From an uncultured Chthoniobacterales bacterium (lineage in GTDB: Bacteria; Verrucomicrobiota; Verrucomicrobiia; Chthoniobacterales; SZAS-18): 24,000 nucleotides of DNA. The notes beneath the pieces are model-generated. The model was not told the DNA's origin. It ran no database searches and saw only the letters and a program-made list of their open reading frames with translations. Positions 1-15,924 of this stretch are shown here, one piece after another. Made by a program: the position numbers and the translations under genes. Positions within the stretch are counted from its first letter, which is position 1; each line of letters opens with the position of its first letter. The stretch covers positions 22,480 to 46,479 of the forward strand of contig CAXTOX010000007.1 of assembly GCA_964245885.1 (NCBI GenBank). Direction: 5' to 3'.

Positions 1-1
1 A

Positions 2-382
2 GAGATGAACCGCCTCCGGCAGGAAGGCGTGGAGGTGATCGCCTTCGGCTACCAGGGCGAGGGCGAGTACATGCGCGACTGCGCGACGCACTTTTTTTCA
101 CCCAACAATGGACAGGACATCAGCCAGGGACTCAACGCCATCGCGGCCGAGGTCAACGATACGTCCGACGTGGTGATCGACGACGCCACGCGCCGGATCA
201 TGGGGACGCTGCCCGGCGTCGCGTCGATGCAGAGCGCGCCAGTCACCGAAGCCACCGCCGCCGCGACTCCTTCGCCCGCAACCGCCACGGCGAGCAGGAA
301 ACGCCATCCGTTCTTGCTCTGGCTGGGAATCTTTGTCGGCGTCATGCTGATCCGCTCGGCCTTCCGCAGCAAGCGTCGGTAA
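2..382 (+). CDS. C-terminal fragment of a membrane-anchored protein (possibly the end of a vWA-type domain); 5' end lies outside the window
   Basis: Frame is open from the window edge to the stop at 380-382. It has an Ala/Thr/Pro-rich linker and ends HPFLLWLGIFVGVMLIRSAFRSKRR (hydrophobic helix plus basic tail). The vWA idea rests only on the look of GVEVIAFGYQGEG...ISQGLNAIAAEV and is weak. Confidence 0.45.
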   Translation, partial: EMNRLRQEGVEVIAFGYQGEGEYMRDCATHFFSPNNGQDISQGLNAIAAEVNDTSDVVIDDATRRIMGTLPGVASMQSAPVTEATAAATPSPATATASRKRHPFLLWLGIFVGVMLIRSAFRSKRR

Positions 383-430
383 TCACATCATGCGAAAGAA
401 TCATGCGTTTCCGGGCAGGCAGCGAAGCTG

Positions 431-568
431 CTCGTCCCAAGGTAGGGATGGCTCTCCGAGCCGCTCCCTAATTTTTCCGGCGAGGCGCACCGTGCGCACG
501 TTGGTCATCCAAACCAAAACAGGGAGCGGCTCGGAGAGCCATCTCTACCTTGGGACGACGCCTGCGGC
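431..568. repeat. REP/BIME-like inverted repeat pair, family 1 (core GGTAGGGATGGCTCTCCGAGCCGCTCCCTA)
   Basis: Left arm 431-469 (ctcgtcccaaggtagggatggctctccgagccgctccct) is nearly the exact reverse complement of right arm 521-560. The spacer is about 50 nt. Each arm can also fold on itself (TAGGGA..GGCTC tcc GAGCC..TCCCTA). Related copies are at 8199-8354 and 5530-5560. Confidence 0.8.
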
Positions 569-583
569 AGCCTGGCACCATGC

Positions 584-2134
584 ATGAAAAAGGTTCTGTC
601 CATTTTTCTCATCCTGCTGACGCTGGCGATGGTCGGCTGGGGGCTGACCCGTCCCGGACGCGACGCGCGGCGGGCCGCCGACCTGTTCGCGCGCACCAGC
701 GACGCGCGGCAGTACAAGCGCACGGTCACGATCTGGGGCGACGACTGGCTCGGCTATCTCGTGTTGCGCTCGCCGCGTTTCGCCCACGCGCTCGCGGACC
801 ACGACATCGGCGTGCGTTGGGAGATGGAGCCGGATTTTGAAAAACGTTTCGCGGGCCTGCGCGACGGCCGGTGCGACTTCGTCGCCGCGACGCTCGACAG
901 CTACCTTGCCAACGGCAACGCGACGGGCTGGCCGGGCGCGATTACCTGGGTCATCGACGAGAGCTTCGGCGGCGACGCCGTGCTGGCGGGCGAGAACGTC
1001 AAAAATCTCGACGACCTCAACCGCGCGGGCGTGCGCGGGGCGTTCGTGGGGTTGTCACCGTCGGAGTTCTTGCTGCGCGCGGAGGTCAGCCATTTTCACC
1101 TCGACCGACTCCGCGCCGGGTTGGAGAAATCCCGCGTGGACAACGTCGAGACCGCCTACAACGCGCTCCGGGACAAGCGCGCGGATTTCGCCGTGCTGTG
1201 GGAACCCCTCGTGACCCGCGCGAAGACCGAAATCCCCGGCGCGCACGTGCTCATCGACACGCGCGAGGCGCAGGGCTTGATCATCGACATCGCTCTCGCG
1301 CGCCGCCAGTTGATCGACAGCGACCCGGCGCTGGTCCAGACCGTGACGCGCGCGTACTTCGAGGCGCTGCACGACTATCTGAACCACGCCGCCGCCTTCA
1401 CCGACGCCGCCGCGCACGACAGCGGCAAGGGCGCGGCCGACGCGGAAACGATGCTGCGCGGGGTCCGCTTCGACACGCTCGGCGACAACGTGCAGGACTG
1501 GCTTTCCGAAAGCCACGACCACGACGCGCGGCTCGCGACGAGCGTGGGGCAAATCCGCGCGATCCTGCGCGACCACCAGCAGCGCATCGACCTGCCCAAC
1601 GATGATCCTGATTCCATCCTGTACCGCGGCGTCGTCCAGGCCGTGGGCAAACAGCCGACCGGCATCGCCGAACTCTCGGGCGGCGCCGCGGCGAAACGCA
1701 GCGACCCGGCGCGGCAGTTAGGTCAATATTACCCACCGTTGACCCCCGACCAGTGGGACGCGCTGGCCGGACAGGTGCGCGGCACGCTGCTCGACGAACC
1801 CATCGTCTTCCAGCCCGGGCAGACGGACATCCCCGAGGACTTCCAAGCGTCCATCCGCGACGCCGCGCCCAAGCTGGCGAACTACCCGGCGTTTCGCGTC
1901 GTCGTCGAGGCGCACGTCAGCCCGGGTGAATCGAAGGAAGCGGACCAGGCGCTCTCCGAGGCCCGCGCGCTGGAGGTGAAGCGTTTTCTCTCCACCGAAT
2001 GCGGCGTGCCGGAAGACCGGGTCCTCGCGCGGGGGAAGGGTTCCGGCGAGCCGCCGCAGCGTTATCCGGGTGAGACGGACGCGGCGTGGGCGCGAAGGGC
2101 GCGGCGGGCGCGGATTTACTTGGTGGGTCAGTGA
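584..2134 (+). CDS. Membrane-anchored periplasmic-binding-protein-like (NitT/TauT/NMT1-type SBP) domain fused to a C-terminal OmpA-family peptidoglycan-binding domain
   Basis: ATG at 584 gives the N-terminal anchor MKKVLSIFLILLTLAMVGWG. TIWGDDWLGYLVL...CDFVAATLDSYLANG resembles type-2 SBPs. The C-terminus FRVVVEAHVSPGESKEADQALSEARALEVKRFL...RARIYLV is OmpA_C-like. Family names come from motif recognition only. Confidence 0.65.
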   Translation: MKKVLSIFLILLTLAMVGWGLTRPGRDARRAADLFARTSDARQYKRTVTIWGDDWLGYLVLRSPRFAHALADHDIGVRWEMEPDFEKRFAGLRDGRCDFVAATLDSYLANGNATGWPGAITWVIDESFGGDAVLAGENVKNLDDLNRAGVRGAFVGLSPSEFLLRAEVSHFHLDRLRAGLEKSRVDNVETAYNALRDKRADFAVLWEPLVTRAKTEIPGAHVLIDTREAQGLIIDIALARRQLIDSDPALVQTVTRAYFEALHDYLNHAAAFTDAAAHDSGKGAADAETMLRGVRFDTLGDNVQDWLSESHDHDARLATSVGQIRAILRDHQQRIDLPNDDPDSILYRGVVQAVGKQPTGIAELSGGAAAKRSDPARQLGQYYPPLTPDQWDALAGQVRGTLLDEPIVFQPGQTDIPEDFQASIRDAAPKLANYPAFRVVVEAHVSPGESKEADQALSEARALEVKRFLSTECGVPEDRVLARGKGSGEPPQRYPGETDAAWARRARRARIYLVGQ

Positions 2135-2162
2135 CGATTCCCGTAAGCTCTTCCCCTTCGCC

Positions 2163-2918
2163 ATGAAAGCGCCCGACCGCATCGACGTTGCCCGGCAAGC
2201 CCTGGGACAGGTGTTGACTCATCCCGTGACGTGGGTGCCGTTCGTGCCGGTGGCGGCGGCGTTTGCGTTCTTGGGCGCGGCGTGGTGGCTGTGTCTGGCG
2301 GTGGCGCTGGCCGTGGCGGTCGTGGTGTTCCTGGCTTGGTCGCACTCCTGGCCGCGGCTGACGGCGGTGACGCGCGCCCGGATGCTCGCCGCGCACCGCG
2401 CCGACGAGGACGAGGAACTGGCCGCGCGGGTGCAGCGCCTGGCGTTGTCGCCGCAGCGGGCGTCGGCGCTGGAAACCCTCGCCGCCCTGCGCGAGGCGAC
2501 GGCGATCAAGCGTTCCATCGAGGACCGGGTGCATGCGGACGGGGTCGTCACCGATCACGAAGCGGAAGTCAGCGCGATGGTAGGCGAACTGGTCCGCACG
2601 ATGGTCGAGGAAGCCGAGCGGCTGACGCTGACGGACGGCGGCGCGGTGTCGCCGACAACCGCCGGACGTTTCGACAAAGCGGCGGCGACGCTGCGGCAGG
2701 TTTACTCCGAGATCGACGTGGTGCTCGACCCGGTGCCCGAGGACCTGCGGGTGCCCGCCGGGGACGATGCGCTTTCCCGCGCCAGCGAACGTCTCGACGA
2801 ACGGCTCAAGCTCGCGCGCGGCATCCGCCGACACCTGGAGCGCGACATCCCTCTGCCGGAAGCGGAGGAGAGCGCGAGTGTTTCCCGTTTACCTGACTCA
2901 CCAAAGCAACCAGAATAA
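2163..2918 (+). CDS. Hypothetical inner-membrane protein: two N-terminal TM helices plus a long helical/coiled-coil cytoplasmic domain; likely PspA partner
   Basis: I chose the internal ATG at 2163 (MKAPDRID...) because the upstream part of ORF 2070-2918 is Arg/Gly junk overlapping the previous gene. TM segments are VTWVPFVPVAAAFAFLGAAWW and LCLAVALAVAVVVFLAW. The stop lies 6 nt before the pspA ATG. Confidence 0.6.
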   Translation: MKAPDRIDVARQALGQVLTHPVTWVPFVPVAAAFAFLGAAWWLCLAVALAVAVVVFLAWSHSWPRLTAVTRARMLAAHRADEDEELAARVQRLALSPQRASALETLAALREATAIKRSIEDRVHADGVVTDHEAEVSAMVGELVRTMVEEAERLTLTDGGAVSPTTAGRFDKAAATLRQVYSEIDVVLDPVPEDLRVPAGDDALSRASERLDERLKLARGIRRHLERDIPLPEAEESASVSRLPDSPKQPE

Positions 2919-2924
2919 CCATCT

Positions 2925-3668
2925 ATGTTTAGACGCATCTTCAACGTGTTCCGCGGCTTCGTCGGTCTGTTCGTCGGAGGGATCGAACGCCGTAATCCCG
3001 AGGCCCTGCTCGAAGTCGAACGGGAGAATCTCCGCAAGCAGATTTCCCAGTATAACCAGGGGTTGGCCGAGCACGCCGGGCTTTGCGAGCGTCTGATGAG
3101 CCAGGTCAAGAAACTCGAAGTCGAGGAAAACGACCTGCGCGCCAAGACCAGCGTGAACCTGCGCGCGGGCAACAAGGATTCCGCGGGCCAATACGCCCTG
3201 CGCCTGCAAACGATCAGCGGCCAGCTCAAGGAAAACCGCGCGCAGGCCGAGTCGGCGGAAAAGACTTACCAGGAACTCGTCCGCGCCCGCGAGGTGAGCG
3301 TGCGCGCCGCGCAGTCCAAGATCGAGGCGCTCAAGTACAGTCTGAGCGACCTGAAGATCAAGAACGCGACCGCCGAACTCAGCGAAATGGCGGCGGGCAT
3401 GATCCAGCAGATCGGCGGTTCGGGCGACACGCTGGGGCGCTTGAGCGAGATGGTCGAGGAAGACCGCCAGCGCGCCGCCGGCCGCGCGCGGGTGGCCAAG
3501 GACTCGTTGGACACGAGCGACATCCACATGAAGGAAGCCGAGCAGAAGGCGCTGGCCGATCAGGCGCTAGCCGACTTCGCGGCCAAGGAAGGCATCGCCG
3601 TCGATCCGGTCACGCCGGCTTCCGCCGAACAACGCACGAAGACGATGGGACCGGCGGAAAACCAGTAA
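2925..3668 (+). CDS. pspA: PspA/IM30/Vipp1-family protein (bacterial ESCRT-III superfamily)
   Basis: 247 aa. It has an N-terminal amphipathic helix (MFRRIFNVFRGFVGLF), then NPEALLEVERENLRKQISQYNQGLAE... and a long heptad-like helical hairpin typical of PspA/IM30. Confidence 0.85.
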   Translation: MFRRIFNVFRGFVGLFVGGIERRNPEALLEVERENLRKQISQYNQGLAEHAGLCERLMSQVKKLEVEENDLRAKTSVNLRAGNKDSAGQYALRLQTISGQLKENRAQAESAEKTYQELVRAREVSVRAAQSKIEALKYSLSDLKIKNATAELSEMAAGMIQQIGGSGDTLGRLSEMVEEDRQRAAGRARVAKDSLDTSDIHMKEAEQKALADQALADFAAKEGIAVDPVTPASAEQRTKTMGPAENQ

Positions 3669-3684
3669 GCGAGGCACGAAAATT

Positions 3685-3788
3685 TATCCGCAGATTACGC
3701 AGATTTTCGCAGATTGAAGAAATAGGGCAGAACAAAGCATCTTTTCCCTCTTCCGCTAATCCGCGAAAATCTGCGTAATCTGCGGATA
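3685..3788. repeat. REP-like inverted repeat, family 2 (GCAGATT-type); possible transcription terminator or RNA stabiliser after pspA
   Basis: Arm 3685-3715 (tatccgcagattacgcagattttcgcagatt) is the reverse complement of 3758-3788 (aatccgcgaaaatctgcgtaatctgcggata) with one mismatch. GCAGATT occurs three times directly within the arm. The region is AT-richer than its surroundings. Confidence 0.8.
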
Positions 3789-3817
3789 GATTCTGCTCCT
3801 CCCGCGAACGACCCGCC

Positions 3818-5503
3818 ATGCCTGCCCCAGACCTGACCGCACTCGCCCCGTGGGCGGCGGAGATGATCGCGCTCTACCAAAGCCACACCGCGAGCCAGTT
3901 CATTCTCAGCGGCAACGTCAACGACCGTTTCCTGCTCCCGCTTGGGCCTGGCAAGCCGGTGCTCGGCAGCCTGACGGAGTTTCTCGGCAAAGTGCTGCTG
4001 CCGCGCTTCGACGTGGTGCTCAGCTACGACCTCGGCAACGGCTTGCGCGTGGAACACGGCGGCGAGGCGTTCGCCCAGTGGCCCGCTTCCCAGCTCGGCA
4101 CCCCACTGCCGCGTGCGCCGCGTCCCGCCGTCGAGACGCTGACGCACTATTTTCGCTACAACGCCAACCTCGGCCGTCTGGGCAAACCCACCTTGCAAAT
4201 CGGCTGCTGGCTGCGTTCGGCCCACCTCATCGCGCCCGCCGTGCCCGGTACGGCGACCGACTACGACCTGAGCGCGCTGGCCCTGCTGATGCGCGACTGG
4301 GCCGGCGACGCGCTGTTGAACGATTCGCGTCTCGTGACATGCCTGATCGTGGACAACCTGAACGACTTGCATCCGTTGTTAGTCAACAATCCGCGCGTCG
4401 CCCGCATGTCGATCCCGCTGCCGACGACGGCGGAACTGCACACCGCGCTCGAAGGGCTTGCCCCCGCTGCTCCGGCCGCGCTCGCGGAGTTTGCGGGCAA
4501 GCTGGACGAACTGTCCGCCGCGCTCACCGGCTCGACGCTCACGGCCGTCGAAAATCTCGTCAAGCTCAAGGAATACCGCCGCGAACCGCTCCGCCCCACC
4601 GATCTCGTGGGCCTGAAGAAAGAACTCGTCGAACGCGAGGCCGGTGGCCTGATCGAATTCGTCGAACCCCGTCGCACGCTGGAGGATTTCCACGCGCCCG
4701 CCGCCATGAAGGACGCCCTGCGCGAGGACATCGCGCTCTGGCACGCGGGCGACACCGCTGCCTCGCCGATGGGTTACCTCATCTGTGGACCGGTCGGCAC
4801 GGGCAAGACGTTCCTCGTCGAATGCCTGGCGGGCGAGGCCGGCATCCCGGTGGTCAAGATCAAAAACTTCCGCGACAAGTGGGTCGGCAGCACGGAAGGC
4901 AACTTGGAAAAAATCTTTCGGCTCCTGCACGGGTTGGATCGCTGCTACGTGTTTATCGACGAGGCGGACCAGGCGCTTGGGCGGCGCGATCCGGGCGGCA
5001 ATGACAGCGGCCTGGGCGGCCGGGTTTACTCGATGTTCGCCGCCGAGATGAGCAACCCGTCGAACCGCGGGCGGATCGTGTGGGTATTAGCGTCGAGCCG
5101 CCCGGACCTGATCGAGGTCGATCTCAAGCGGCCCGGCCGCGTCGACGTGAAGTTGCCACTGTTCCCCACGGCGACGCCGGAGGAGAGTTTTGCACTGCTG
5201 CGCGCGTTGTGCCGTCGACGGGAGATCGTGCTAGATGAATCGGACCTCGCGGCGAACCGCGAGCGGATGCCCCTGCTTTTGACTCCTGGCGCGGCGGAAA
5301 CGCTCGCGTTGAAGATTTACCGCACGGCGAAAACCCGCCGGGTCTCCTCCGCCGATGCGCTGGCCGCGGCGCTGGCCGATTACCAGAACCCGGTACCGTT
5401 GCAAACGCTGCGGTTTCAGATCGCGCTGGCCGCCGCCGAGGCGAGCGACCGGAGCTTTGTGCCAGTGGCGTTCCGTGAAACAGTGGAAGCTAACCCGATT
5501 TGA
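3818..5503 (+). CDS. Classical-clade AAA+ ATPase (Cdc48/FtsH/Vps4-like ATPase module) with a ~300 aa N-terminal region of unknown, possibly degenerate AAA-like, fold
   Basis: Walker A is GPVGTGKTF (about 4787-4813) and Walker B is CYVFIDEADQ. An SRH-like region VLASSRPDLIEVDLKRPGRVD carries Arg fingers. The protein is 561 aa. Confidence 0.85.
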   Translation: MPAPDLTALAPWAAEMIALYQSHTASQFILSGNVNDRFLLPLGPGKPVLGSLTEFLGKVLLPRFDVVLSYDLGNGLRVEHGGEAFAQWPASQLGTPLPRAPRPAVETLTHYFRYNANLGRLGKPTLQIGCWLRSAHLIAPAVPGTATDYDLSALALLMRDWAGDALLNDSRLVTCLIVDNLNDLHPLLVNNPRVARMSIPLPTTAELHTALEGLAPAAPAALAEFAGKLDELSAALTGSTLTAVENLVKLKEYRREPLRPTDLVGLKKELVEREAGGLIEFVEPRRTLEDFHAPAAMKDALREDIALWHAGDTAASPMGYLICGPVGTGKTFLVECLAGEAGIPVVKIKNFRDKWVGSTEGNLEKIFRLLHGLDRCYVFIDEADQALGRRDPGGNDSGLGGRVYSMFAAEMSNPSNRGRIVWVLASSRPDLIEVDLKRPGRVDVKLPLFPTATPEESFALLRALCRRREIVLDESDLAANRERMPLLLTPGAAETLALKIYRTAKTRRVSSADALAAALADYQNPVPLQTLRFQIALAAAEASDRSFVPVAFRETVEANPI

Positions 5504-5595: not shown

Positions 5596-6648
5596 CTACC
5601 TCGGTACGACGCGGACCTCCAACCCACTGGTGTTTAATGCTTCCTGCTGGAAGCGCACAGGCAGAAACGCCTCGATCACCCCGATGTTCGTCCGCGCGTG
5701 CGGCGACAAGCCGGCCGTGCGGAACGCCCCGCCACCGGCCAGCGCCATCGGCAGCAAAATCTGGTCGGTTAGGTATTCGCCCACGGGCAACCCGGCCGCG
5801 AGGTAGGCGCGAACCTGTTCCACCAGGCGGTCGGCCACGGCTTCGGCGCGCAAGCCGCGTTCACCGACCGCGCTGAAAACTTCCACGTGCGACTTCGACG
5901 CGACCTCGCCGACGAGCGCGAAACCTTGACCCCGCTCGGCCGGATGCTCGATGCATTCGCACACCGCCCGGCCCCAACGCAGACGTTTGTCCACCTGCAC
6001 GAAGGCGCGCTCCGCCACACCTGGCGGCAAACTGGCGGCATGTGCCACGACGCGGCGTGAGCCTTCCGCACCGCGGGTCAGCAGTTCCACCGGAACAAAC
6101 CGGTCGGTCGGCGTCACGTCCACCTCGATCTGACCACCTCCCGCCGGGTAGAAACCGGCGCGCATCAACGTCGCTTCCACCCGAGGGCCGAAGCGATGGA
6201 AGACCGGTAGGAAAGTGCGCGCTAGAAAATCGAAAGGAGGCGCGAGCGGATTGTGCGTGCCGCCTTCCAACGTCAAACGCGACGGTCCGGCGGCCAGCGC
6301 CAGCGCGGGCAGGATCGTTTGCAAAACGAGCGTCGTACTCCCCGCCGTGCCGACGGCAAAGCGGTAGTCGCCCGCGCGCACCACGCCAGGACGGAACACG
6401 AGTTCGCCCGCGCCGATTTCCGCGCCGTCGCACGCGGCGTCGCTGATCTCGACCGCCGCACGCACCGCCGTCAGGTGCTGCCGCAATAATCCCGGCTTCG
6501 CCCGGCCCGCGCGAATGTTCGTGATGCGGAAGGCGCGGCCCGTCACGAGCGACAGGGCGAGCGAGGTGCGCAGGATTTGTCCTCCGCCCTCGCCCGCCGC
6601 ACCGTCGATGGTGACCACCGGCGACGAACCGGCTGACCGCGTCTTCAC
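5596..6648 (-). CDS. rtcA: RNA 3'-terminal phosphate cyclase RtcA
   Basis: DGAAGEGGGQILRTSLALSLVTGRAFRITNIRAGRAKPGLLRQHLTAV matches the RtcA signature, including the RAGRAKPGL...H nucleotidylation region. A GTG start overlaps the rtcB stop (GTGA at 6648-6645), which implies translational coupling. Confidence 0.9.
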   Translation of the reverse strand: MKTRSAGSSPVVTIDGAAGEGGGQILRTSLALSLVTGRAFRITNIRAGRAKPGLLRQHLTAVRAAVEISDAACDGAEIGAGELVFRPGVVRAGDYRFAVGTAGSTTLVLQTILPALALAAGPSRLTLEGGTHNPLAPPFDFLARTFLPVFHRFGPRVEATLMRAGFYPAGGGQIEVDVTPTDRFVPVELLTRGAEGSRRVVAHAASLPPGVAERAFVQVDKRLRWGRAVCECIEHPAERGQGFALVGEVASKSHVEVFSAVGERGLRAEAVADRLVEQVRAYLAAGLPVGEYLTDQILLPMALAGGGAFRTAGLSPHARTNIGVIEAFLPVRFQQEALNTSGLEVRVVPR

Positions 6649-8156
6649 GCCGCGCCTCCCAGGCTGCCGTCGGCATCCTTGATGACGAACCGTGCCCGCA
6701 GGCGCGCGACTTCCGACGCGAGGCCGGCTGATTTCACGCTGCGCAGCACCTCGTCGAAATCCTTGTACGCCGCGGGTGCCTCATCCTTAGGATAGAACCG
6801 GCAGTTCGTCAGAATGTCGAGGTCGGTGAACTGCTGGTCCACCGTCTGCTGGTCGAACTCGCGGATGGCCGCCTTGCGCCCCTTGGCCCGGCCCGCGCCG
6901 TGGTTGACCGAATAGCAGCTCAACGCCGCGCCCGGTTCCGCGACCATGACGCTGCTACCCGCCGCCGGGTTGCCCGGCAGCAGGATGGGATGGCCCGTCT
7001 CGGCAAACGGCGTGCCGGCGAGCGCGTGGTGACCGCCCGGGTAGGCGCGGGTCGCCCCTTTGCGGTGCACCCAGGCCGGACGATTTCCCACGATCTCGCG
7101 CCGCGCGATGTTGTGGCTGATGAAGTACACCAGCCCGCCGGTCGTGCCGGGAATGATTTCCTGGAACGCTTCCAGCACGAGGGCGTTGATGAGCAGGTGG
7201 TTCACCGTGGCAAAGTTCGCGCCGAGGGCCATGTCGTCCAAGTACGCGTCGGCCTCGGGCGTGTCGAGGGGAGCATACACCAGTTCCTTGTCCTGGCCCG
7301 GCAACGGCAAACCCCAGCGCGCGAAGAACCCCTGTAACGCGTGGAACTGACCCATCGCCAGATTGTGCCCGAAGCCGCGCGAGCCGCAATGCGACAGGAA
7401 GGCGAGGCCGCCGTCGCGCAGGCCGAAACTCTCGGCCGTCGCGCGCAGGCGTTCGTCGCCGGACAGTTCCACCGCCTCGCACTCGCCGAAATGGTTGCCG
7501 CCGCCGTAGCTGCCGAGCTGCGTCATCTTTTCGTCGAACTTCGGGAAAGCGCCGCCGCTGATCAACCGGTCCAGACGCGAGCGGAGGGCGTCCGCCGTGC
7601 CGTCGTGGCCGACGTGCGACGCGTCCTCGCAATGCGCGGCCCACGCGGGCGGGATGCCCAGGGCTTCGCACACCTCGACGGACGCGCCTTCGGTCGCCAC
7701 GCGGCGGCCGAGTTCCGGCGAAACACGGCGTGACTTGCGCGCGGAACGCTGCCCACGACCGGCACCGGTTGGAGTGCGTTCGCAGATCGCGTCGATGAGC
7801 GAGCGGCGGACCGTGCGTTCCGCGACGGCGTCGGCGGGCAGGCCGAGGGCGAGCAGGCTCATGGAGCATTTGATGTCCACGCCGACCGGGCCGGGATAGA
7901 TGTGCGTGGGCGACACCATCACGCAGCCGACCGGCGCGCCGTAGCCCGCGTGGGCGTCGGGGTTGAGGACGAGGTCCGTCACGCCGGGCGCGCCGCGGGA
8001 GTTGAGAGCCTGTTCGAGGCAGCGCGCGTCGAAGCCCTGACGGATGGCTTCGGTGCCGATGACGGTGATCGGCTTGCCGTGCGACCCGCGCGCGGGCAGG
8101 AAGCCGGTGGCCTCGCCGGTGGCGGTGATGGGTGAAGGGATGGATTCAGGGTTCAT
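6645..8156 (-). CDS. rtcB: RNA ligase RtcB (3'-phosphate/5'-hydroxyl RNA-splicing ligase), long ~500 aa form
   Basis: Motifs present: NPDAHAGYG, GVDIKCSM, SYGGGNHFGE, HCGSRGFGH and VNHGAGR (the nucleophilic His motif). Confidence 0.9.
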   Translation of the reverse strand: MNPESIPSPITATGEATGFLPARGSHGKPITVIGTEAIRQGFDARCLEQALNSRGAPGVTDLVLNPDAHAGYGAPVGCVMVSPTHIYPGPVGVDIKCSMSLLALGLPADAVAERTVRRSLIDAICERTPTGAGRGQRSARKSRRVSPELGRRVATEGASVEVCEALGIPPAWAAHCEDASHVGHDGTADALRSRLDRLISGGAFPKFDEKMTQLGSYGGGNHFGECEAVELSGDERLRATAESFGLRDGGLAFLSHCGSRGFGHNLAMGQFHALQGFFARWGLPLPGQDKELVYAPLDTPEADAYLDDMALGANFATVNHLLINALVLEAFQEIIPGTTGGLVYFISHNIARREIVGNRPAWVHRKGATRAYPGGHHALAGTPFAETGHPILLPGNPAAGSSVMVAEPGAALSCYSVNHGAGRAKGRKAAIREFDQQTVDQQFTDLDILTNCRFYPKDEAPAAYKDFDEVLRSVKSAGLASEVARLRARFVIKDADGSLGGAA

Positions 8157-8198: not shown

Positions 8199-8354
8199 CC
8201 GCCGCAGGCGTCGTCAACAATGGGTAGGGATGGCTCTCCGAGCCGCTCCCTAACTTTTCTGGAAAGTGTTTCGCCGCAATGACAGTTAACCAGAGAACAA
8301 TAGGGATTGCCTCGGAGAGCCATCCCTACCCATTGTTGACGACGCCTGCGGCGG
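8199..8354. repeat. REP/BIME-like inverted repeat pair, family 1, inside the rsr-rtcB transcription unit
   Basis: Arm 8199-8252 (ccgccgcaggcgtcgtcaacaatgggtagggatggctctccgagccgctcccta) faces arm 8301-8354 (tagggattgcctcggagagccatccctacccattgttgacgacgcctgcggcgg). The spacer is about 48 nt. It has the same core as the 431-568 element. Confidence 0.8.
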
Positions 8355-8381
8355 CTCCAGGCATGATTTGAAAGGAAATTT

Positions 8382-8513
8382 ACGGCGACAAAATTGAAGT
8401 GACGTTTTACGTGCTCTACCACTGAGCTACGGTTCCGTGGAAAGTGGAACCGGCGGGACTCGAACCCGCGACCCGTCCGTGTATAGGGATGTAGTCACAT
8501 CGGCATTCGCCGC
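8382..8513 (-). ncRNA. Y RNA-like unit 4 (YrlA-type) with a circularly permuted tRNA-like module
   Basis: Minus strand. Terminal stem GCGGCGA/UCGCCGU, then AUGCC..GUGAC UACAU, paired 3' with AAAAC GUCAC. Inside are a T arm GCGGG-UUCGAGU-CCCGC, a 7-bp acceptor-like hairpin CGGUUCC/GGAACCG, and a D arm UA-GCUC-AGUGGUA-GAGC. The arm order T, acceptor, D is that reported for YrlA. Ends are approximate. Confidence 0.75.
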
Positions 8514-8543
8514 AAAATTTGGAAATGGATTAAAAGTGAGGAT

Positions 8544-8692
8544 GACCGACGGTTCGTGATGACAAGAGATTGGTGAAACGGTTTTCGATGCTCTCCCGTT
8601 GAGCTATTCGGCCTTGCGGCCGAACCGGGACTCGAACCCGGAACCGGCGAATTAAATGTAGTTCCACGCGGCATTCGTCACGAGAGCCGGTC
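8544..8692 (-). ncRNA. Y RNA-like unit 3 (YrlA-type) with a circularly permuted tRNA-like module
   Basis: Minus strand. Terminal stem UCGUGACGA/UCAUCACGA (one C-A mismatch) plus outer GACCG/CGGUC, then AUGCC..GUGGAAC UACAU, paired 3' with AAAAC C GUUUCAC. Inside are a T arm CCGGG-UUCGAGU-CCCGG, an acceptor-like 7-bp stem UUCGGCC-GCAA-GGCCGAA (GNRA loop), and a D arm UA-GCUC-AACGGGA-GAGC. Ends are approximate. Confidence 0.75.
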
Positions 8693-8699
8693 ATTCTGC

Positions 8700-8848
8700 G
8701 AGCGTGCCGACAACCGGCGGCAGGACGTTTTACTGAGCTATCCCGTTTTGAGGCGGGACCAGATGTCGAATCTGGGACCTCCCGCGCGAGGCTTTCACCT
8801 CGCGCGGGCGCTCTTACCATGTAGTCCGTGCCTGCATTCGGCACGCTC
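8700..8848 (-). ncRNA. Y RNA-like unit 2, whose tRNA-like module appears to be opened in the D loop rather than the anticodon stem
   Basis: Minus strand. Perfect 11-bp terminal stem GAGCGUGCCGA/UCGGCACGCUC, then AUGCA..GGAC UACAU, paired 3' with AAAAC GUCC. Inside are GGUAAGAGCG, an 11-bp GC hairpin CCCGCGCGAGG-UGAAAG-CCUCGCGCGGG, AGGUC, a T arm CCAGA-UUCGACA-UCUGG, an acceptor-like hairpin UCCCG..CGGGA, and UAGCUCAGU. Confidence 0.7.
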
Positions 8849-8876
8849 AAATTTTCTGCAAAGAACAAGGGGTTGA

Positions 8877-8939
8877 TCGCCGACAAGTTTCTGGTGAGAC
8901 CCTCACATGGTAAAATGTAGTCCCACCGGCATTCGGCGA
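8877..8939 (-). ncRNA. Y RNA-like unit 1, a minimal form without a tRNA-like module (YrlB-like?)
   Basis: Minus strand, starting 6 nt after the rsr stop. Perfect terminal stem UCGCCGA/UCGGCGA, then AUGCC GGUGGGAC UACAU...GUCUCACC (8 bp with one G-U). It has the same 5' motif as units 2-4 but only about 63 nt. Confidence 0.55.
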
Positions 8940-8944
8940 AAGGT

Positions 8945-10501
8945 TTACAGTGCGATTTGCTCGATCTGCTCCACCCAGTGACCCGCCCGCAGGTTGCCCT
9001 GCGCGAAGGCCGCCACGATCTCGAACACCGCGTCCGAGAAGCCGCCGACGTTAAGGATGTCCCCGCGTTCGGCCGCCTGCGTGCTCGCGTACGGCTGGAT
9101 GTCCAGGCACACCAGCCGGGCGCGCGGGTTGCGGGCGCGGAACGCCGACCATTCGGCCATCGTCGCCGTGCTGCGGCCCCCACCCTGCGCGTCCATCCAG
9201 GACATGTTGTCCGAGACGACGATCACGAGGTCGCCGGTCGCGCGCATCTTGTTCAGGTGCGCGAGTGGGGCCGAGCAGTTCGTCCCGCCGCTGGGCAGCG
9301 AGGCGAGCTTCTGCGCGTTGGTCATGACGCTGTCGCGGGCGTTGAGCTGGCACGGCACGACGCTGTCGCTGAAGGCCAGCACCTCCGCCGCCGGATTGCG
9401 CCGCAGGACGCTCGCCGCCACCAACGCGGCCACGTCGATGCAGCGCGTCTTGGTCGTGGACCCGGCGCGGTGGCCGGTCACGGGCGACTGCATGGAACCG
9501 GACACATCCGGGCAAACGTACACCTGTCCGTCGATGGCCGGGACGTTCTCCGTGGCGATCTCCATCGCGTCCTGGAGCGCGCCCCGCACGGTGGCGGGCA
9601 CCGCCTGGTCGGCGGCGTGGAACGCGGTCAGGAGTTGGTAGGGAAAGCACCGGGCGCGGCGCACCTTCTGCGGGTCGCGCAGACGGTAGGCGATACGGTG
9701 GGTAAGGTCCTGATCGTCGAACACGCCGTGGCGCGCGAAGGTGTTCAGGTTCATGCGCGTGGTCTGCCACGAGGCGTTCTCCGCGATGGCCTGCCAGGCG
9801 GCGCGGTCGAGGTCGAGCGCGGTCAGCATCTGGAAAGGCACGTCGGGCACGGCCTGGATGAAGCCACCCTTGAAGGCGTCGAACTGGCGTACCAACGGCG
9901 GCAACTGCGCGGCGTCGTGCGTGCGGCCGATCAACCAGCCGTACAGCGCCTCGCGCTGAGCGTTGGCCGGGCGCGGGTGCACCATCTTGACGACATCCGC
10001 CAGCGAAGGCGACTGGCCGACCGACGCGCGGAACACGCCCTCGTCGTCGCGGCGTTCCAACCAGCGGCGCACGAGGCGGCGCGGGGCGCTGCCGAGCGAC
10101 TTGCGGCCCGTGACGCCGCTGCGGACGATCTGCACGAAGCTGCGCAACGTGCGGCCGTCGTCGATCACGCGGTCAAAGACGCGTTCCAGCATCGGTACGT
10201 CGAGCGTGGCCAGCGCGGCGCAAAGCAGGGCGGGCGTGTCCTTCATGAAGCCACGCGTGCGGCAGTAGATCGCCGTCTGCGCCACGAACGCCGCGTCGGC
10301 CTGGCCGGCCAGCGCGAGAAGGCGTTCCAACTGCGCTTCCGCGCTCGCGTAGAACGTCGTGTTCAGGCAACCGGTGACCGCATACTGCGCGAGGGCATGC
10401 CGGGGCGGCAGCGCGAAGGCCGGGCCGCCGGCCTCATTGCGGGCGTTCGTCCGGGGCAGGATCGCCCCGGCAACGGTCTGGAAGAGAGTCTTGTTGGCCA
10501 T
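8945..10501 (-). CDS. rsr: Ro60-related protein Rsr (TROVE domain plus C-terminal vWA/MIDAS)
   Basis: MANKTLFQTVAG...NEAGGPAFAL...QYAVTGCLNTTFY is a typical TROVE N-terminus. The MIDAS motif is CPDVSGSM. I prefer the ATG at 10501 over the ORF-track start at 10552, whose extra 17 aa are Arg/Thr-rich. Confidence 0.9.
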   Translation of the reverse strand: MANKTLFQTVAGAILPRTNARNEAGGPAFALPPRHALAQYAVTGCLNTTFYASAEAQLERLLALAGQADAAFVAQTAIYCRTRGFMKDTPALLCAALATLDVPMLERVFDRVIDDGRTLRSFVQIVRSGVTGRKSLGSAPRRLVRRWLERRDDEGVFRASVGQSPSLADVVKMVHPRPANAQREALYGWLIGRTHDAAQLPPLVRQFDAFKGGFIQAVPDVPFQMLTALDLDRAAWQAIAENASWQTTRMNLNTFARHGVFDDQDLTHRIAYRLRDPQKVRRARCFPYQLLTAFHAADQAVPATVRGALQDAMEIATENVPAIDGQVYVCPDVSGSMQSPVTGHRAGSTTKTRCIDVAALVAASVLRRNPAAEVLAFSDSVVPCQLNARDSVMTNAQKLASLPSGGTNCSAPLAHLNKMRATGDLVIVVSDNMSWMDAQGGGRSTATMAEWSAFRARNPRARLVCLDIQPYASTQAAERGDILNVGGFSDAVFEIVAAFAQGNLRAGHWVEQIEQIAL

Positions 10502-10583
10502 GGAAGTGCAGGTTGACGTTTGAGTCGCCCGCCGTCGGTTCGATGTTCGCACCGGACGGACGTTGAGCGATGAACCCTTCTAT

Positions 10584-10598
10584 CGCTAGGCACGTGCC
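10584..10598 (-). promoter_or_regulatory. Sigma54 (-24/-12) promoter for rsr-Y RNA-rtcBA
   Basis: The minus strand reads TGGCACGTGCCTAGC. This matches TGGCACG-N4-TTGC, with GG and GC at the canonical spacing and one mismatch (TAGC for TTGC). It lies about 85 nt upstream of the rsr ATG, next to divergent rtcR, which is a sigma54 activator. Confidence 0.7.
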
Positions 10599-10743
10599 AG
10601 CGAAGATTTCTCCAATTGCTTTCAATGCGTAAATTCCTTTCGCGCAGAGAGAAAAATTTATTTTGGCATGGCATCGTGTTAAGCAGGGCGCATTGTTGCT
10701 AGCACCAACCTAGATTTATCGCTAGCTATTTAGCGTATCCGCC

Positions 10744-12369
10744 ATGCCTACCAAGAAGCTCGTCGTCCTCGGTTTACTCGGGACCCAGTTGGATTCGGGC
10801 AAGAACGCCCACCGCTGGGAAAACTGGCGGCCCACCGTCTCGCTCTGCCAACACGACGATCTGCTCGTCGCGCGGCTCGAACTACTCCACGACCGCCGCC
10901 ACACCAGCCTCACCGAAACCGTGACGACGGACATCGCCGGGGTCTCACCGGAGACGGAAGTTCACGGGCACCTCGTGGAATTCAGCGACCCGTGGGACTT
11001 CGAAGAGGTCTACGGCTCGCTGGCGGACTTCGCGCGCGGCTATCCCTTCGACCCGGAAAAAGAAGACTACCTCGTCCACATCACCACGGGCACGCACGTC
11101 GCTCAGATCTGCCTCTTCCTGCTGACGGAGTCGCGACGTTTCCCGGGACGGCTCATCCAGACTTCCCCGCCCGCCGAACGCCAGCCCCGGCACCGCGCGG
11201 CCGCCGGGCGGTACTCCATCATCGACCTGGACCTGTCGCGCTACGACCGCATCGCGGCGCGCTTCGCCGAAGAACAGCGGGAAGCGCGCACGTTCCTCAA
11301 AAACGGCATCGCCACGCGCAACGCCGCGTTCAACCGCATGATCGAGGAGATCGAGCAGGTGGCCGTCGCGTCGCGCGAGCCGATGCTGTTCATGGGGCCG
11401 ACCGGCGCGGGGAAATCGTCGCTGGCGCGCAAGGTGTTCGAGTTGAAACGCGGCCGGCACCAGCTCGCCGGGCAGTTCGTGGAGGTCAACTGCGCGACCC
11501 TGCGCGGGGACACTGCGGTGAGCACGCTCTTCGGCCACGTGCGGGGAGCGTTCACCGGGGCGCAGCGCGACCGTCCGGGACTGCTGCGCACGGCGAACGG
11601 CGGGCTGTTGTTCCTCGACGAAATCGGTGAACTCGGCCCCGACGAACAGGCCATGCTGCTGCGCGCGCTGGAGGAAAAACGCTTCCTGCCCGTCGGCGCG
11701 GACCAGGAAGCGGTGAGTGACTTCCAGCTCATCGCCGGAACGAACTGCGACCTGTCCGGGGCGGTGGCCAAGGGCGAGTTCCGCGAGGATCTGCTGGCGC
11801 GGATCAACCTGTGGACCTTCGCACTGCCAGGGCTCGCGCAACGGTCCGAGGACATCGCGCCCAACCTCGACCACGAACTCGAACGCGCGGCGCAACGGCT
11901 CGGCCGGCGCGTCGGCATGGCCCGGGACGTGCGCGGGGCGTTCCTGGATTTCGCGCGTTCGGGCGAGGCGAAGTGGAGCGCGAACTTCCGCGACCTGAAC
12001 GCCGCCGTCACGCGCATGGCCACGCTCGCGCCGGGCGGACGGATCACGCGCGAGGTGCTGGCCAGGGAGCTTATCCGTCTGCGGGCTGGCTGGCAGAACG
12101 CGAACGGCACGGAGAGCGGCCGGGCGGGCACGGGCGACGAGGCATTGCTGGTCGAAACGCTGGGCGCGGACGGGGCAGCCTCGCTCGACTTATTCGACCG
12201 GGCGCAGCTTGCCTGCGTAGTGCGGGTTTGCCGCGACAGCAAAACCTTGAGCGAGGCCGGCCGGCGGCTCTTCGCGGTGACCCGGGGCAAACGCAAGGTT
12301 GCCAACGATGCCGACCGGCTGCGCAAATATCTCGCGCGTTTCGGCCTGGTTTGGCCGTGCGGCGTCTAG
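10744..12369 (+). CDS. rtcR: Sigma54-dependent transcriptional activator RtcR (CARF-like sensor N-domain, AAA+ core, C-terminal HTH)
   Basis: N-terminus KLVVLGLLGTQLDSGKNAHRWENWRPTVSLC is RtcR-type. Walker A is GPTGAGKS, the sigma54-contact loop is GAFTGA, and Walker B is LLFLDEIGEL. It is divergent from rsr. Confidence 0.9.
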   Translation: MPTKKLVVLGLLGTQLDSGKNAHRWENWRPTVSLCQHDDLLVARLELLHDRRHTSLTETVTTDIAGVSPETEVHGHLVEFSDPWDFEEVYGSLADFARGYPFDPEKEDYLVHITTGTHVAQICLFLLTESRRFPGRLIQTSPPAERQPRHRAAAGRYSIIDLDLSRYDRIAARFAEEQREARTFLKNGIATRNAAFNRMIEEIEQVAVASREPMLFMGPTGAGKSSLARKVFELKRGRHQLAGQFVEVNCATLRGDTAVSTLFGHVRGAFTGAQRDRPGLLRTANGGLLFLDEIGELGPDEQAMLLRALEEKRFLPVGADQEAVSDFQLIAGTNCDLSGAVAKGEFREDLLARINLWTFALPGLAQRSEDIAPNLDHELERAAQRLGRRVGMARDVRGAFLDFARSGEAKWSANFRDLNAAVTRMATLAPGGRITREVLARELIRLRAGWQNANGTESGRAGTGDEALLVETLGADGAASLDLFDRAQLACVVRVCRDSKTLSEAGRRLFAVTRGKRKVANDADRLRKYLARFGLVWPCGV

Positions 12370-15712: not shown

Positions 15713-15924
15713 CAGCCCCGGCAGGGGCGCAAGCGTTTAGCCCACGGCGCGAGCCGTGGGAAAGCCTGCGGCACCACAAAGCCCCGGCAGGAGCGCAAGA
15801 AAAGACGCAGGCCAGCGGGACCACCGAGCGGGTGTTCTTCCGCCCCTGCCGGGGCTGGGCTGGTGGGTGCTGGTTCCCCACGGCTCACGCCGTGGGCTAA
15901 ACTCTTGCGCCCCTGCCGGGGCTG
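15713..15924. repeat. REP cluster, family 3: nested inverted copies of CAGCCCCGGCAGGGGCGCAAG-N-TTTAGCCCACGGCG-N-GAGCCGTGGG
   Basis: The 48-nt unit at 15713-15760 and its reverse complement at 15877-15924 differ at 2 positions. Partial inverted copies lie at 15780-15799 and 15841-15858. Each full unit holds the hairpin CCCACGGC-nnnn-GCCGTGGG. The cluster sits between convergent genes. Confidence 0.8.

What the first reader, a model, noticed from the sequence alone, without database searches (positions are those of the whole stretch)
8382..8692. Units 3 and 4 carry circularly permuted tRNA-like modules with near-canonical T and D arms
On the minus strand the elements appear in the order T arm (GCGGG-UUCGAGU-CCCGC; CCGGG-UUCGAGU-CCCGG), then a closed 7-bp acceptor-like hairpin (one capped by a GCAA tetraloop), then a D arm (UA-GCUC-AGUGGUA-GAGC-A; UA-GCUC-AACGGGA-GAGC-A). 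The would-be anticodon stem opens into the Y RNA stem. The T-loop and D-loop residues that form the tRNA elbow (UUCGA, GG) are preserved. Published work on YrlA proposes that such modules mimic tRNA. They cannot be aminoacylated because there is no free CCA end, but they could engage tRNA-binding enzymes. That is relevant next to RtcB, a tRNA ligase.
Basis: partly seen in the sequence, partly recalled or inferred. Interest (0 to 1): 0.7.

Follow-up and report, generated by a model that had tools for sequence, protein, structure and literature searches.

The report
Two tRNA-mimicking bacterial Y RNAs (YrlA)

Summary
On the minus strand, unit 4 (8516-8379) and unit 3 (8697-8539) each carry a T arm, a closed 7-bp acceptor-like hairpin, a UA linker and a D arm.

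Both match Rfam YrlA (RF02553) at E 2e-14 and 5e-11. These scores are just under the curated cut-off, but orthologous units in related genomes pass it.

The locus is rtcR <> rsr - four Y-like units - rtcB - rtcA, the layout of the Salmonella rsr-yrlBA-rtcBA operon. The host is a verrucomicrobial (Chthoniobacterales-like) genome.

In 80 related rsr loci a model built from the two units finds 185 matches. Of the full modules, 109 of 128 keep UUCGA and 119 of 128 keep the D-loop GG. All 16 stem pairs covary, and the Levitt pair 15:48 covaries (unit 4 G:C, unit 3 A:U).

Circular permutation, tRNA mimicry and the RtcB link are all published (Chen 2014; Wang 2018).

One refinement applies. Unit 3 belongs to a tetraloop-capped class. 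Unit 4 belongs to an "open-loop" class with a strict 7-bp stem. In 16 of 85 relatives that loop encodes N-CCA at the tRNA 3'-end position, so RNase P opening, as shown for M. smegmatis YrlA, cannot be excluded for unit 4.

Verdict: a real feature and a new member of a known kind, of modest interest.

The parts
8379..8516 (-). Unit 4: complete YrlA-class Y RNA of the 'open-loop' acceptor class
   Evidence: Rfam RF02553 64.8 bits, E 2.4e-14. The minimum-energy fold gives terminal stem, second stem, T arm, acceptor-like hairpin and D arm. RNAalifold on 7 orthologues gives the same fold.
8539..8697 (-). Unit 3: complete YrlA-class Y RNA of the tetraloop-capped acceptor class, with a long terminal stem (AUGACCG 8694-8688 pairs with CGGUCAU 8548-8542)
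   Evidence: Rfam RF02553 53.1 bits, E 5.5e-11. RNAalifold on 7 orthologues finds 12 pairs with compensatory change. Fold.
8453..8469 (-). Unit 4 T arm GCGGG-UUCGAGU-CCCGC
   Evidence: Exact match. All 5 pairs covary across 150 aligned matches.
8430..8452 (-). Unit 4 acceptor-like hairpin CGGUUCC-ACUUUCCAC-GGAACCG (7 bp; the loop starts A-C at the tRNA 73-74 positions)
   Evidence: Compensatory changes in orthologues.
8412..8429 (-). Unit 4 UA linker (tRNA positions 8-9), D arm GCUC-AGUGGUA-GAGC and A26
   Evidence: The UA linker is kept in 120 of 128 modules and GCUC/GAGC in 118 of 128.
8625..8641 (-). Unit 3 T arm CCGGG-UUCGAGU-CCCGG
8607..8624 (-). Unit 3 acceptor-like hairpin UUCGGCC-GCAA-GGCCGAA (7 bp, GNRA cap)
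   Evidence: Orthologues read UCCAACC-GCAA-GGUUGGA, CCCGCUC-GCAA-GAGCGGG and AACGAUC-GCAA-GAUCGAA.
8589..8606 (-). Unit 3 UA linker, D arm GCUC-AACGGGA-GAGC and A26
8504..8511 (-). Unit 4 GGCGAAUG, the GNCGAAN0-1G motif proposed to be the Rsr contact
   Evidence: Motif defined in PMC4201824. Present in 98 of 121 related modules.
8672..8679 (-). Unit 3 GACGAAUG, the GNCGAAN0-1G motif
8699..8849 (-). Unit 2: Y-like unit with CGAAUGC and CUAC motifs, an extra GC-rich hairpin, a T-like arm (CCAGA-UUCGACA-UCUGG), an acceptor-like hairpin and only the 5' half of a D arm (UAGCUCAGU)
   Evidence: The same truncated form occurs in L001 5822-5935.
8877..8939 (-). Unit 1: short hairpin-type Y-like unit (CGAAUGC, CUAC, UUGUC) with no tRNA-like module
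   Evidence: Only a weak YrlB match, 15.3 bits, E 8.
8945..10501 (-). rsr (Ro60 orthologue; TROVE plus Ro60 vWA domains)
   Evidence: Pfam. 518-aa relatives at 75-91% identity, including Chthoniobacter flavus. Start ATG at 10501.
6645..8156 (-). rtcB RNA ligase
   Evidence: Pfam PF01139, E 8e-94.
5596..6648 (-). rtcA RNA 3'-phosphate cyclase
   Evidence: Pfam PF01137, E 1.6e-79.
10744..12369 (+). rtcR, a divergently transcribed sigma-54 activator
   Evidence: Pfam RtcR E 2.4e-85 plus Sigma54_activat E 4.7e-47.
10584..10599 (-). Candidate sigma-54 promoter TGGCACgtgccTAGC, about 85 nt upstream of the rsr start
   Evidence: By count this pattern is not above chance in the window; only its position and orientation speak for it.

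Best explanation
Units 3 and 4 are two paralogous YrlA-class bacterial Y RNAs. They lie inside an RtcR/sigma-54-controlled operon: rsr, four Y-like RNAs, rtcB, rtcA. They are most likely cut out of the polycistronic transcript (inferred). In each unit the 5' and 3' ends pair into a stem that carries the GNCGAAUG motif. By homology this is where the Ro60 orthologue Rsr binds (inferred). The middle of each RNA folds as a circularly permuted tRNA body. The T arm and a 7-bp acceptor-like hairpin stack on each other. The D arm packs against them through the T-loop/D-loop elbow (G18/G19 with U55/C56), the Levitt pair 15:48 and the 8-14-21, 13-22-46 and 9-12-23 triples. The would-be anticodon stem continues into the Rsr-binding stem. 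The secondary structure and the covariation behind this fold are shown here. The L-shape is inferred from the Salmonella YrlA crystal structure 6CU1. The tRNA-like end is the effector end. It presents a tRNA elbow to tRNA-recognising proteins while Rsr holds the other end. TruB and DusA are shown to act on Salmonella YrlA. PNPase or an RNA-repair factor are proposed partners. This tethers Rsr to RNA decay or repair machinery that is induced together with RtcB/RtcA. Unit 3 is permanently closed by its GCAA tetraloop. Unit 4 belongs to a class whose 7-bp stem and single-stranded loop would also allow RNase P opening, as in M. smegmatis.
For: Both units match Rfam YrlA over the full length of the model, at E 2.4e-14 and 5.5e-11. 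Orthologous units exceed the Rfam cut-off: L003 74.2 bits, L006 83.1 bits, L007 71.8 bits. The gene context rtcR <> rsr-Y-rtcB-rtcA is confirmed by Pfam and equals the published rsr-yrlBA-rtcBA operon. A covariance model built from the two units finds 185 matches in 80 rsr loci. All are on the rsr strand and nearly all lie just downstream of rsr. In the aligned matches 97.6% of stem cells are paired and all 16 pairs show compensatory changes. Register-shift controls give 37-55% paired. Tertiary signals are conserved: UUCGA 109 of 128, GG 119 of 128, UA linker 120 of 128, A14 120 of 121, G46 110 of 121. The Levitt pair is G:C in 67 and A:U in 42 of 121 modules. T-loop and D-loop variants covary. 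RNAalifold on plain MAFFT alignments of 7 orthologues recovers the same fold for each unit. Each un-permuted module is recognised as a tRNA by ARAGORN. No sigma-70 promoter lies inside the array, and the only terminator-like hit falls within unit 1's own stem, no more than the shuffles give. Published experiments on family members: pseudouridine 55 by TruB, dihydrouridine by DusA, Rsr binding, and RNase P cleavage with CCA addition in M. smegmatis; crystal structure.
Against: Both units score below the Rfam YrlA gathering score (64.8 and 53.1 against 69). For unit 3 the nearest-neighbour minimum-energy fold (-60.9 kcal/mol) beats the YrlA-constrained fold (-52.0). It does so by pairing the D loop GGGAGAG with CUCUUGUC. 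That pairing is specific to this window and is not supported in orthologues. Expression, processing, Rsr binding and nucleotide modification are untested for this organism. The biochemical role of the tRNA-like module is unresolved even in the model species. The alignment used for the large covariation count was fitted to the model, which biases it toward the structure.
Confidence: 0.9

Rival explanations
1. Unit 4, but not unit 3, is a precursor. RNase P cuts 5' of G8436, the loop is trimmed, and CCA is completed. The product is a two-piece, nicked tRNA-like Y RNA with a free 3' end, as in M. smegmatis YrlA and topologically like two-piece tmRNA. This extends the best explanation rather than replacing it.
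For: Unit 4 has a 7-bp acceptor-like stem and a 9-nt loop with no internal pairing, beginning A-C. The published precedent ties RNase P cleavage to a 7-bp stem. In the open-loop class the stem is exactly 7 bp in 81 of 88 modules, against 4-9 bp in the capped class. CCA sits at loop positions 2-4 in 16 of 85 modules, against 2.6% expected (binomial 5e-10, not corrected for relatedness) and 0-3 at other offsets. This holds on different, covarying stems and in several phyla. There are weak matches to the tmRNA 3' end (19 bits) and to permuted tmRNA (21.2 bits). ARAGORN calls a permuted tmRNA over a YrlA unit in L046.
Against: The window's unit 4 and its closest orthologues (L001, L002, L004, L005, L007, L018) have no encoded CCA. 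Their loops are not conserved beyond a leading A in 6 of 7. Position -1 is C, not the U that RNase P favours according to general knowledge. Salmonella YrlA and D. radiodurans Yrn1 are not cleaved. The encoded CCA could be a relic of an origin from tandem tRNAs. RNase P leaves 5'-P and 3'-OH ends, which are not RtcB substrates (general knowledge).
Confidence: 0.2
2. The modules are decaying remnants of a tandem tRNA gene pair: the T arm of one tRNA and the D arm of the next. They have no function of their own.
For: The order T arm, acceptor strands, D arm is what a junction of two tRNA genes gives. True junctions in tRNA arrays upstream of rsr gave partial model matches, model positions 46-104 only. 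A dimeric-tRNA origin has been proposed in the literature.
Against: ARAGORN finds no tRNA in the window. Neither unit has an anticodon arm, nor the remaining halves of the supposed parent tRNAs. The two acceptor strands pair with each other and covary across 80 genomes. The elbow, Levitt and triple nucleotides are under strong conservation. Each module is embedded in Y RNA motifs (GNCGAAUG, CUAC, UUGUC).
Confidence: 0.03
3. The structures are cis-acting mRNA elements, such as processing sites, attenuators or stabilisers, that control rtcB/rtcA expression, rather than trans-acting Rsr-bound RNAs.
For: They lie in the 788-nt gap between rsr and rtcB of one operon.
Against: In the acidobacterial relatives the same units follow rsr, and no rtcB was detected within the 4 kb fetched downstream (26 of 80 loci had any RtcB hit). 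They are homologous to RNAs shown to be stable and Rsr-bound. Their copy number ranges from 1 to 5 per locus.
Confidence: 0.03

Closest known systems
Salmonella Typhimurium YrlA (Rfam RF02553; crystal structure PDB 6CU1)
   Same: Operon context rsr - Y RNAs - rtcB - rtcA under RtcR. GNCGAAN0-1G motif near the 5' end and a conserved YUAY. The order T arm, closed acceptor-like stem, UA, D arm. The same nucleotides for the elbow, the Levitt pair and the three base triples.
   Different: Salmonella has a 6-bp acceptor-like stem with a 3-nt loop and one YrlA plus one YrlB. Here there are two full YrlA units with 7-bp stems plus two further Y-like units. An insertion of 9-14 nt follows CUAC. Scores fall just below the Rfam cut-off.
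Mycobacterium smegmatis YrlA
   Same: A 7-bp acceptor-like stem as in real tRNA, and the same T/D core. This is the best functional analogue for unit 4.
   Different: It lies upstream of rsr and is not under RtcR. It is shown to be cut by RNase P and given CCA. Nothing of the kind has been tested here. I could not retrieve its sequence for a direct comparison.
Deinococcus radiodurans Yrn1
   Same: An Rsr-bound Y RNA with a T arm that carries pseudouridine 55. It tethers Rsr to PNPase.
   Different: Its T- and D-like arms are in a different orientation and there is no clear D arm. It belongs to a separate lineage.
Circularly permuted tRNA genes (red alga Cyanidioschyzon; some archaea)
   Same: [quoted passage not shown]
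   Different: Those precursors contain an anticodon loop and are spliced, circularised and opened into working tRNAs. Units 3 and 4 have no anticodon loop, and the splicing endonuclease is not known in bacteria.
Two-piece (permuted) tmRNA
   Same: The topology: T arm, acceptor 3' strand, intervening segment, acceptor 5' strand. Weak Rfam matches at 21.2 and 19 bits.
   Different: There is no tag reading frame and no pseudoknots. Scores are far below the cut-off of 47. ARAGORN finds no tmRNA in the window.
b7a-tRNA (band-7-associated tRNA next to RtcB; Burroughs and Aravind 2016, as cited)
   Same: A tRNA-like RNA genetically linked to RtcB.
   Different: It is described as resembling an authentic, non-permuted tRNA and is linked to a band-7 protein. 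I did not compare sequences.

Membership tests
YrlA (Rfam RF02553, Y RNA-like) | Score at or above the curated Rfam gathering score (69 bits) | tested here: not met
   Unit 4 scores 64.8 bits and unit 3 53.1 bits. Both are full-length matches at E 2.4e-14 and 5.5e-11. Orthologous units in L003, L006 and L007 score 74.2, 83.1 and 71.8 bits, so the shortfall reflects divergence and insertions, not a different kind of RNA.
YrlA (Rfam RF02553, Y RNA-like) | Encoded within 4 kb of the Ro60/Rsr gene, on the same strand (criterion of Chen et al. 2014) | tested here: met
   The units start 248 and 429 nt downstream of the rsr stop, on the same strand. Criterion quoted.
YrlA (Rfam RF02553, Y RNA-like) | GNCGAAN0-1G motif near the 5' end and a conserved YUAY before the variable region | tested here: met
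   Unit 4: GGCGAAUG 8511-8504 and CUAC 8494-8491. Unit 3: GACGAAUG 8679-8672 and CUAC 8661-8658. Definition.
YrlA (Rfam RF02553, Y RNA-like) | Nearly invariant T and D stem-loops separated by a variable closed stem-loop (AS), in the order T, AS, D | tested here: met
YrlA (Rfam RF02553, Y RNA-like) | Nucleotides for the tRNA tertiary contacts (G18/G19 with U55/C56; Levitt pair 15:48 with compensatory change; 8-14-21, 13-22-46 and 9-12-23) | tested here: met
   Unit 4: U8, A9, A14, G15:C48, GG, A21, G46. Unit 3: the same with A15:U48. Across relatives the Levitt pair is G:C in 67 and A:U in 42 of 121 modules. Contacts listed.
YrlA (Rfam RF02553, Y RNA-like) | 5' and 3' ends pair into a stem that holds the Rsr site | tested here: met
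   Compensatory changes occur in the terminal and second stems.
YrlA (Rfam RF02553, Y RNA-like) | Bound by Rsr in vivo; pseudouridine 55 by TruB and dihydrouridine by DusA | not testable with these tools
   This needs immunoprecipitation and modification mapping. It is shown only for Salmonella, Deinococcus and M. smegmatis.
tRNA (RF00005 / ARAGORN) | Contiguous cloverleaf with anticodon arm and open acceptor ends | tested here: not met
   ARAGORN finds 0 genes in the window. The best Rfam tRNA match is 14.6 bits against a cut-off of 29. The modules are called tRNA only after artificial un-permutation with a grafted anticodon loop.
Permuted / two-piece tmRNA (RF04321, RF00023) | tRNA-like domain plus tag reading frame and pseudoknots; score at or above 47 bits | tested here: not met
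   21.2 and 19 bits, covering the T arm and acceptor strand only. ARAGORN finds no tmRNA.
Permuted tRNA precursor (Cyanidioschyzon type) | Anticodon loop present; bulge-helix-bulge site at the joined ends | tested here: not met
   The outer strands run into a Y RNA stem of more than 20 bp that carries the Rsr motif. There is no 7-nt anticodon loop. I did not search for a bulge-helix-bulge motif with a dedicated tool.

The most novel reading that the evidence does not exclude
The rsr-linked YrlA RNAs of Verrucomicrobiota and Acidobacteriota comprise two specialised paralogue classes kept side by side. One is permanently closed by a GNRA cap (unit 3). The other is an 'openable' class (unit 4) with a stem held at exactly 7 bp, whose loop in many species still encodes discriminator-CCA. 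In this reading the second class is opened by RNase P into a nicked, two-piece tRNA mimic with a free CCA end. Such an RNA could be a substrate for the CCA-adding enzyme, and possibly an aminoacyl-tRNA synthetase, while tethered to Rsr.
Probability: 0.2. Interest if true: 0.6.

Novelty: new member of a known kind. Interest (0 to 1): 0.3.

Why it matters
As it stands this is a correct rediscovery of YrlA. It confirms that the Ro60/Y RNA/RtcB module, with its permuted tRNA mimic, extends with high conservation into uncultured Verrucomicrobiota. It also shows that standard Rfam annotation at the gathering score would miss these two copies.

The comparative set assembled here adds two things that may help the still open question of what the tRNA-like end of YrlA binds. 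First, the elbow and Levitt contacts covary, which is independent support for the L-shape outside Salmonella. Second, the modules split into a capped class and an open-loop class. The open-loop class has a strict 7-bp stem and a position-specific encoded CCA in relatives. [quoted passage not shown]

Tried and rejected
1. tRNA or tmRNA gene. ARAGORN finds nothing in the window. Rfam tRNA and tmRNA scores are far below their cut-offs. Rejected.

2. Descent from tRNA-Ala, or an alanine identity set like that of tmRNA. G3:U70 occurs in 19 of 85 open-loop modules and A73 in 41 of 85. However, unit 4 has A3:U70. Comparing the module halves with 398 real tRNAs from the related loci gave no alanine signal; the best matches were His, Ile and Asp at low scores. 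Not supported.

3. Model matches covering only the T-AS-D part, upstream of rsr. These turned out to be junctions between real, adjacent tRNA genes in large arrays. They are not extra Y RNAs.

4. The large inverted repeat at 8199-8354 as part of the Y RNA system. It is absent from all 80 related loci, where rtcB follows the last unit within about 25-60 nt in the closest genomes. I treat it as an unrelated, window-specific insertion.

5. Sigma-54 promoter by pattern count. The count is not above chance in the window (8 matches against 10.5 expected). Only the position of the 10599-10584 site is suggestive.

6. MAFFT alignment of the units with the Rfam consensus string misaligned the AS/D region. 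I therefore built the model from the two units only.

7. The supplementary tables of Chen et al. 2014 are not held. I could not check whether Chthoniobacter was among their 254 species.

Full report
**What is in the sequence.** Reading the minus strand between 9000 and 8100 shows the stop of a long ORF at 8945, then four units that share CGAAUGC, ACUACAU and UUGUC motifs. After these come a large inverted repeat and the start of another ORF at 8156.

- Unit 4: T arm 8469-8453, hairpin 8452-8430 (7 bp, loop ACUUUCCAC), UA plus D arm plus A at 8429-8412.
- Unit 3: T arm 8641-8625, hairpin 8624-8607 (7 bp, GCAA), UA plus D arm plus A at 8606-8589.

**Context.** Pfam identifies the flanking genes:

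- 8945-10552(-) is a Ro60/TROVE protein, rsr. Its real start is the ATG at 10501.
- 6645-8156(-) is RtcB (E 8e-94).
- 5596-6648(-) is RtcA.
- 10744-12369(+) is the divergent sigma-54 activator RtcR.

A TGGCAC-N5-TAGC site lies about 85 nt upstream of rsr. The pattern count is not above chance, so only its position counts. There is no sigma-70-like promoter inside the array, and the one terminator-like hit lies inside unit 1's own stem, no more than the shuffles give. This fits one transcript that is later processed.

The layout matches the published Salmonella rsr-yrlBA-rtcBA operon. The closest Rsr proteins (75-91% identity) come from Chthoniobacterales and other Verrucomicrobiota.

**Identity.** At the Rfam gathering score nothing is reported in this region. 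With E-value reporting, unit 4 (8513-8379) matches YrlA RF02553 over the full model at 64.8 bits, E 2.4e-14. Unit 3 (8681-8553) matches at 53.1 bits, E 5.5e-11. The cut-off is 69.

The shortfall comes from insertions after CUAC and from divergence. Orthologous units in related genomes pass the cut-off: L003 74.2, L006 83.1, L007 71.8, and others up to 85.6 bits.

ARAGORN finds no tRNA or tmRNA in the window. The tRNA, tmRNA and permuted-tmRNA models give only sub-threshold partial matches.

**Structure.** Unit 4's minimum-energy fold gives the whole YrlA architecture unaided, with z = -2.45. Unit 3's minimum-energy fold gives the T arm and the capped hairpin, with z = -2.44. It replaces the D arm with a pairing of GGGAGAG to CUCUUGUC that is specific to this window. 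The YrlA-constrained fold is 8.9 kcal/mol worse.

RNAalifold on ordinary MAFFT alignments of seven orthologues recovers the terminal stem, second stem, T arm, hairpin and D arm for both units. It finds 6 pairs (unit 4) and 12 pairs (unit 3) with compensatory changes.

**Comparative test of the elbow.** I built a covariance model from the two units, with T, AS and D pairs only, and searched 80 rsr loci fetched from one-genome-per-species contigs. It gave 185 matches, all on the rsr strand and nearly all just downstream of rsr.

On the 150 best matches, 97.6% of stem cells pair and all 16 pairs show changes on both sides. Slid-register controls give 37-55% paired. The caveat is that this alignment was fitted to the model.

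Among the full modules:

- T loop begins UUCGA in 109 of 128.
- D loop contains GG in 119 of 128.
- The linker is UA in 120 of 128.
- The D stem is GCUC/GAGC in 118 of 128.
- A14 is present in 120 of 121 and G46 in 110 of 121.
- The Levitt pair 15:48 is G:C in 67 and A:U in 42 of 121.

The two window units illustrate the Levitt covariation: unit 4 is G15:C48 and unit 3 is A15:U48. Modules whose T loop is UGCAA lack the GG in 5 of 7 cases, against 1 of 114 otherwise.

Every tertiary contact listed for the Salmonella crystal structure has the right nucleotide in both units. To stand in for the suggested permuted-tRNA scan, I joined each module in tRNA order with a grafted anticodon loop. ARAGORN then calls both as tRNAs.

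**What is already published.** Chen et al. 2014 (PMC4201824) described YrlA in more than 250 species. They covered the T/AS/D/V layout, the GNCGAAN0-1G and YUAY motifs, TruB and DusA modification, and RNase P cleavage plus CCA addition for M. smegmatis YrlA. They singled that RNA out for its 7-bp stem.

Wang et al. 2018 (bioRxiv 10.1101/312249) solved the structure. They called the RNAs circularly permuted tRNAs with closed acceptor stems, discussed a dimeric-tRNA origin, and discussed the link to RtcB. Hughes et al. 2020 (PMC7790460) suggested that YrlA may act as a decoy for an anticodon nuclease.

**What goes slightly beyond the literature I could search.** The modules fall into two classes.

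- Capped class: the acceptor-like stem ends in a GNRA or UNCG tetraloop, and its length ranges from 4 to 9 bp. There are 20 such modules, including unit 3.
- Open-loop class: the loop is 6 nt or longer, and the stem is exactly 7 bp in 81 of 88 modules. Unit 4 belongs here.

The order capped-then-open recurs in 11 loci besides the window; the reverse order occurs in 4.

In the open-loop class, CCA occupies loop positions 2-4 in 16 of 85 modules. That is exactly where tRNA positions 74-76 would lie after a discriminator base. Composition predicts 2.6%, and other offsets show 0-3 cases (binomial 5e-10, not corrected for relatedness). The CCA sits on different, covarying stems in several phyla.

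Unit 4 and its nearest orthologues do not have the CCA. Unit 4's loop is ACUUUCCAC and it has A3:U70. For this window, RNase P opening is therefore only a possibility, which I put at about 0.2. It is enough to make 'cannot be aminoacylated' too categorical for unit 4. The statement stands for the GCAA-capped unit 3. A specific tRNA-Ala ancestry was tested and not supported.

**Verdict.** This is a real feature, correctly read. It is a new member of a known kind: two YrlA paralogues in a verrucomicrobial rsr-rtcBA operon. Confidence in the identification is about 0.9. The molecular role of the tRNA-like end remains inferred from the model species. Interest is modest (0.3).

Noticed in passing
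window 8199-8354 (arms 8199-8252 and 8301-8354): A 54-nt-arm inverted repeat (94% complementary, predicted hairpin -121 kcal/mol) lies between unit 4 and the rtcB start. It is absent from all 80 related loci, where rtcB follows the last Y unit within about 25-60 nt in the closest genomes. Its loop contains UUGCGGCGAA, the same 10-mer that begins unit 4. It may be a window-specific palindromic insertion or an RNase III-type processing site..
   Followed up: partly
L027, L034, L041, L050, L051, L054, L071, L074, L076, L079 and 8 more loci, positions about 1-4000: In 18 of the 80 related loci, all Acidobacteriota, an array of 12-26 tRNA genes lies directly upstream of rsr on the same strand, followed by rsr and 1-5 YrlA units. 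There are 398 tRNA genes in the 80 loci. The window has none..
   Followed up: partly
window 8699-8849 (-) and L001 5822-5935: Unit 2 has a T-like arm, an acceptor-like hairpin and only the 5' half of a D arm (UAGCUCAGU), plus an extra 12-bp GC-rich hairpin. The same truncated form is present in L001, so it is a conserved variant and not a one-off deletion. A further class in Acidobacteriota has a T arm and hairpin but no D arm (for example L029 5825-5936 and L062 5738-5842)..
   Followed up: partly
window 15877-15923 (+) and 15714-15760 (-): Two Acido-Lenti-1 RNA (RF01687) matches above the gathering score (48.2 and 39.2 bits) lie on opposite strands about 120 nt apart..
   Followed up: no
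L047 6220-6338 and L005 5746-5885: The Rfam tRNA model gives above-threshold matches (41.2 and 40.1 bits) that bridge the D arm of one YrlA unit and the T arm of the next. Automatic annotation could mislabel these as intron-containing tRNAs. Similarly, ARAGORN calls a permuted tmRNA over the YrlA units in L046 5864-6369..
   Followed up: no
L064, L058, L055, L029, L047, L071 (seven modules): A YrlA sub-variant has T loop UGCAA in place of UUCGA. Its D loop has AG or CA where GG normally sits, which suggests an alternative elbow pairing (A18 with G55?)..
   Followed up: partly
window 8877-8939 (-): Unit 1 is a short hairpin-type Y-like RNA with the Rsr motif and no tRNA-like module. It is comparable in concept to YrlB but only weakly similar to the Rfam YrlB model (15.3 bits, E 8)..
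   Followed up: partly
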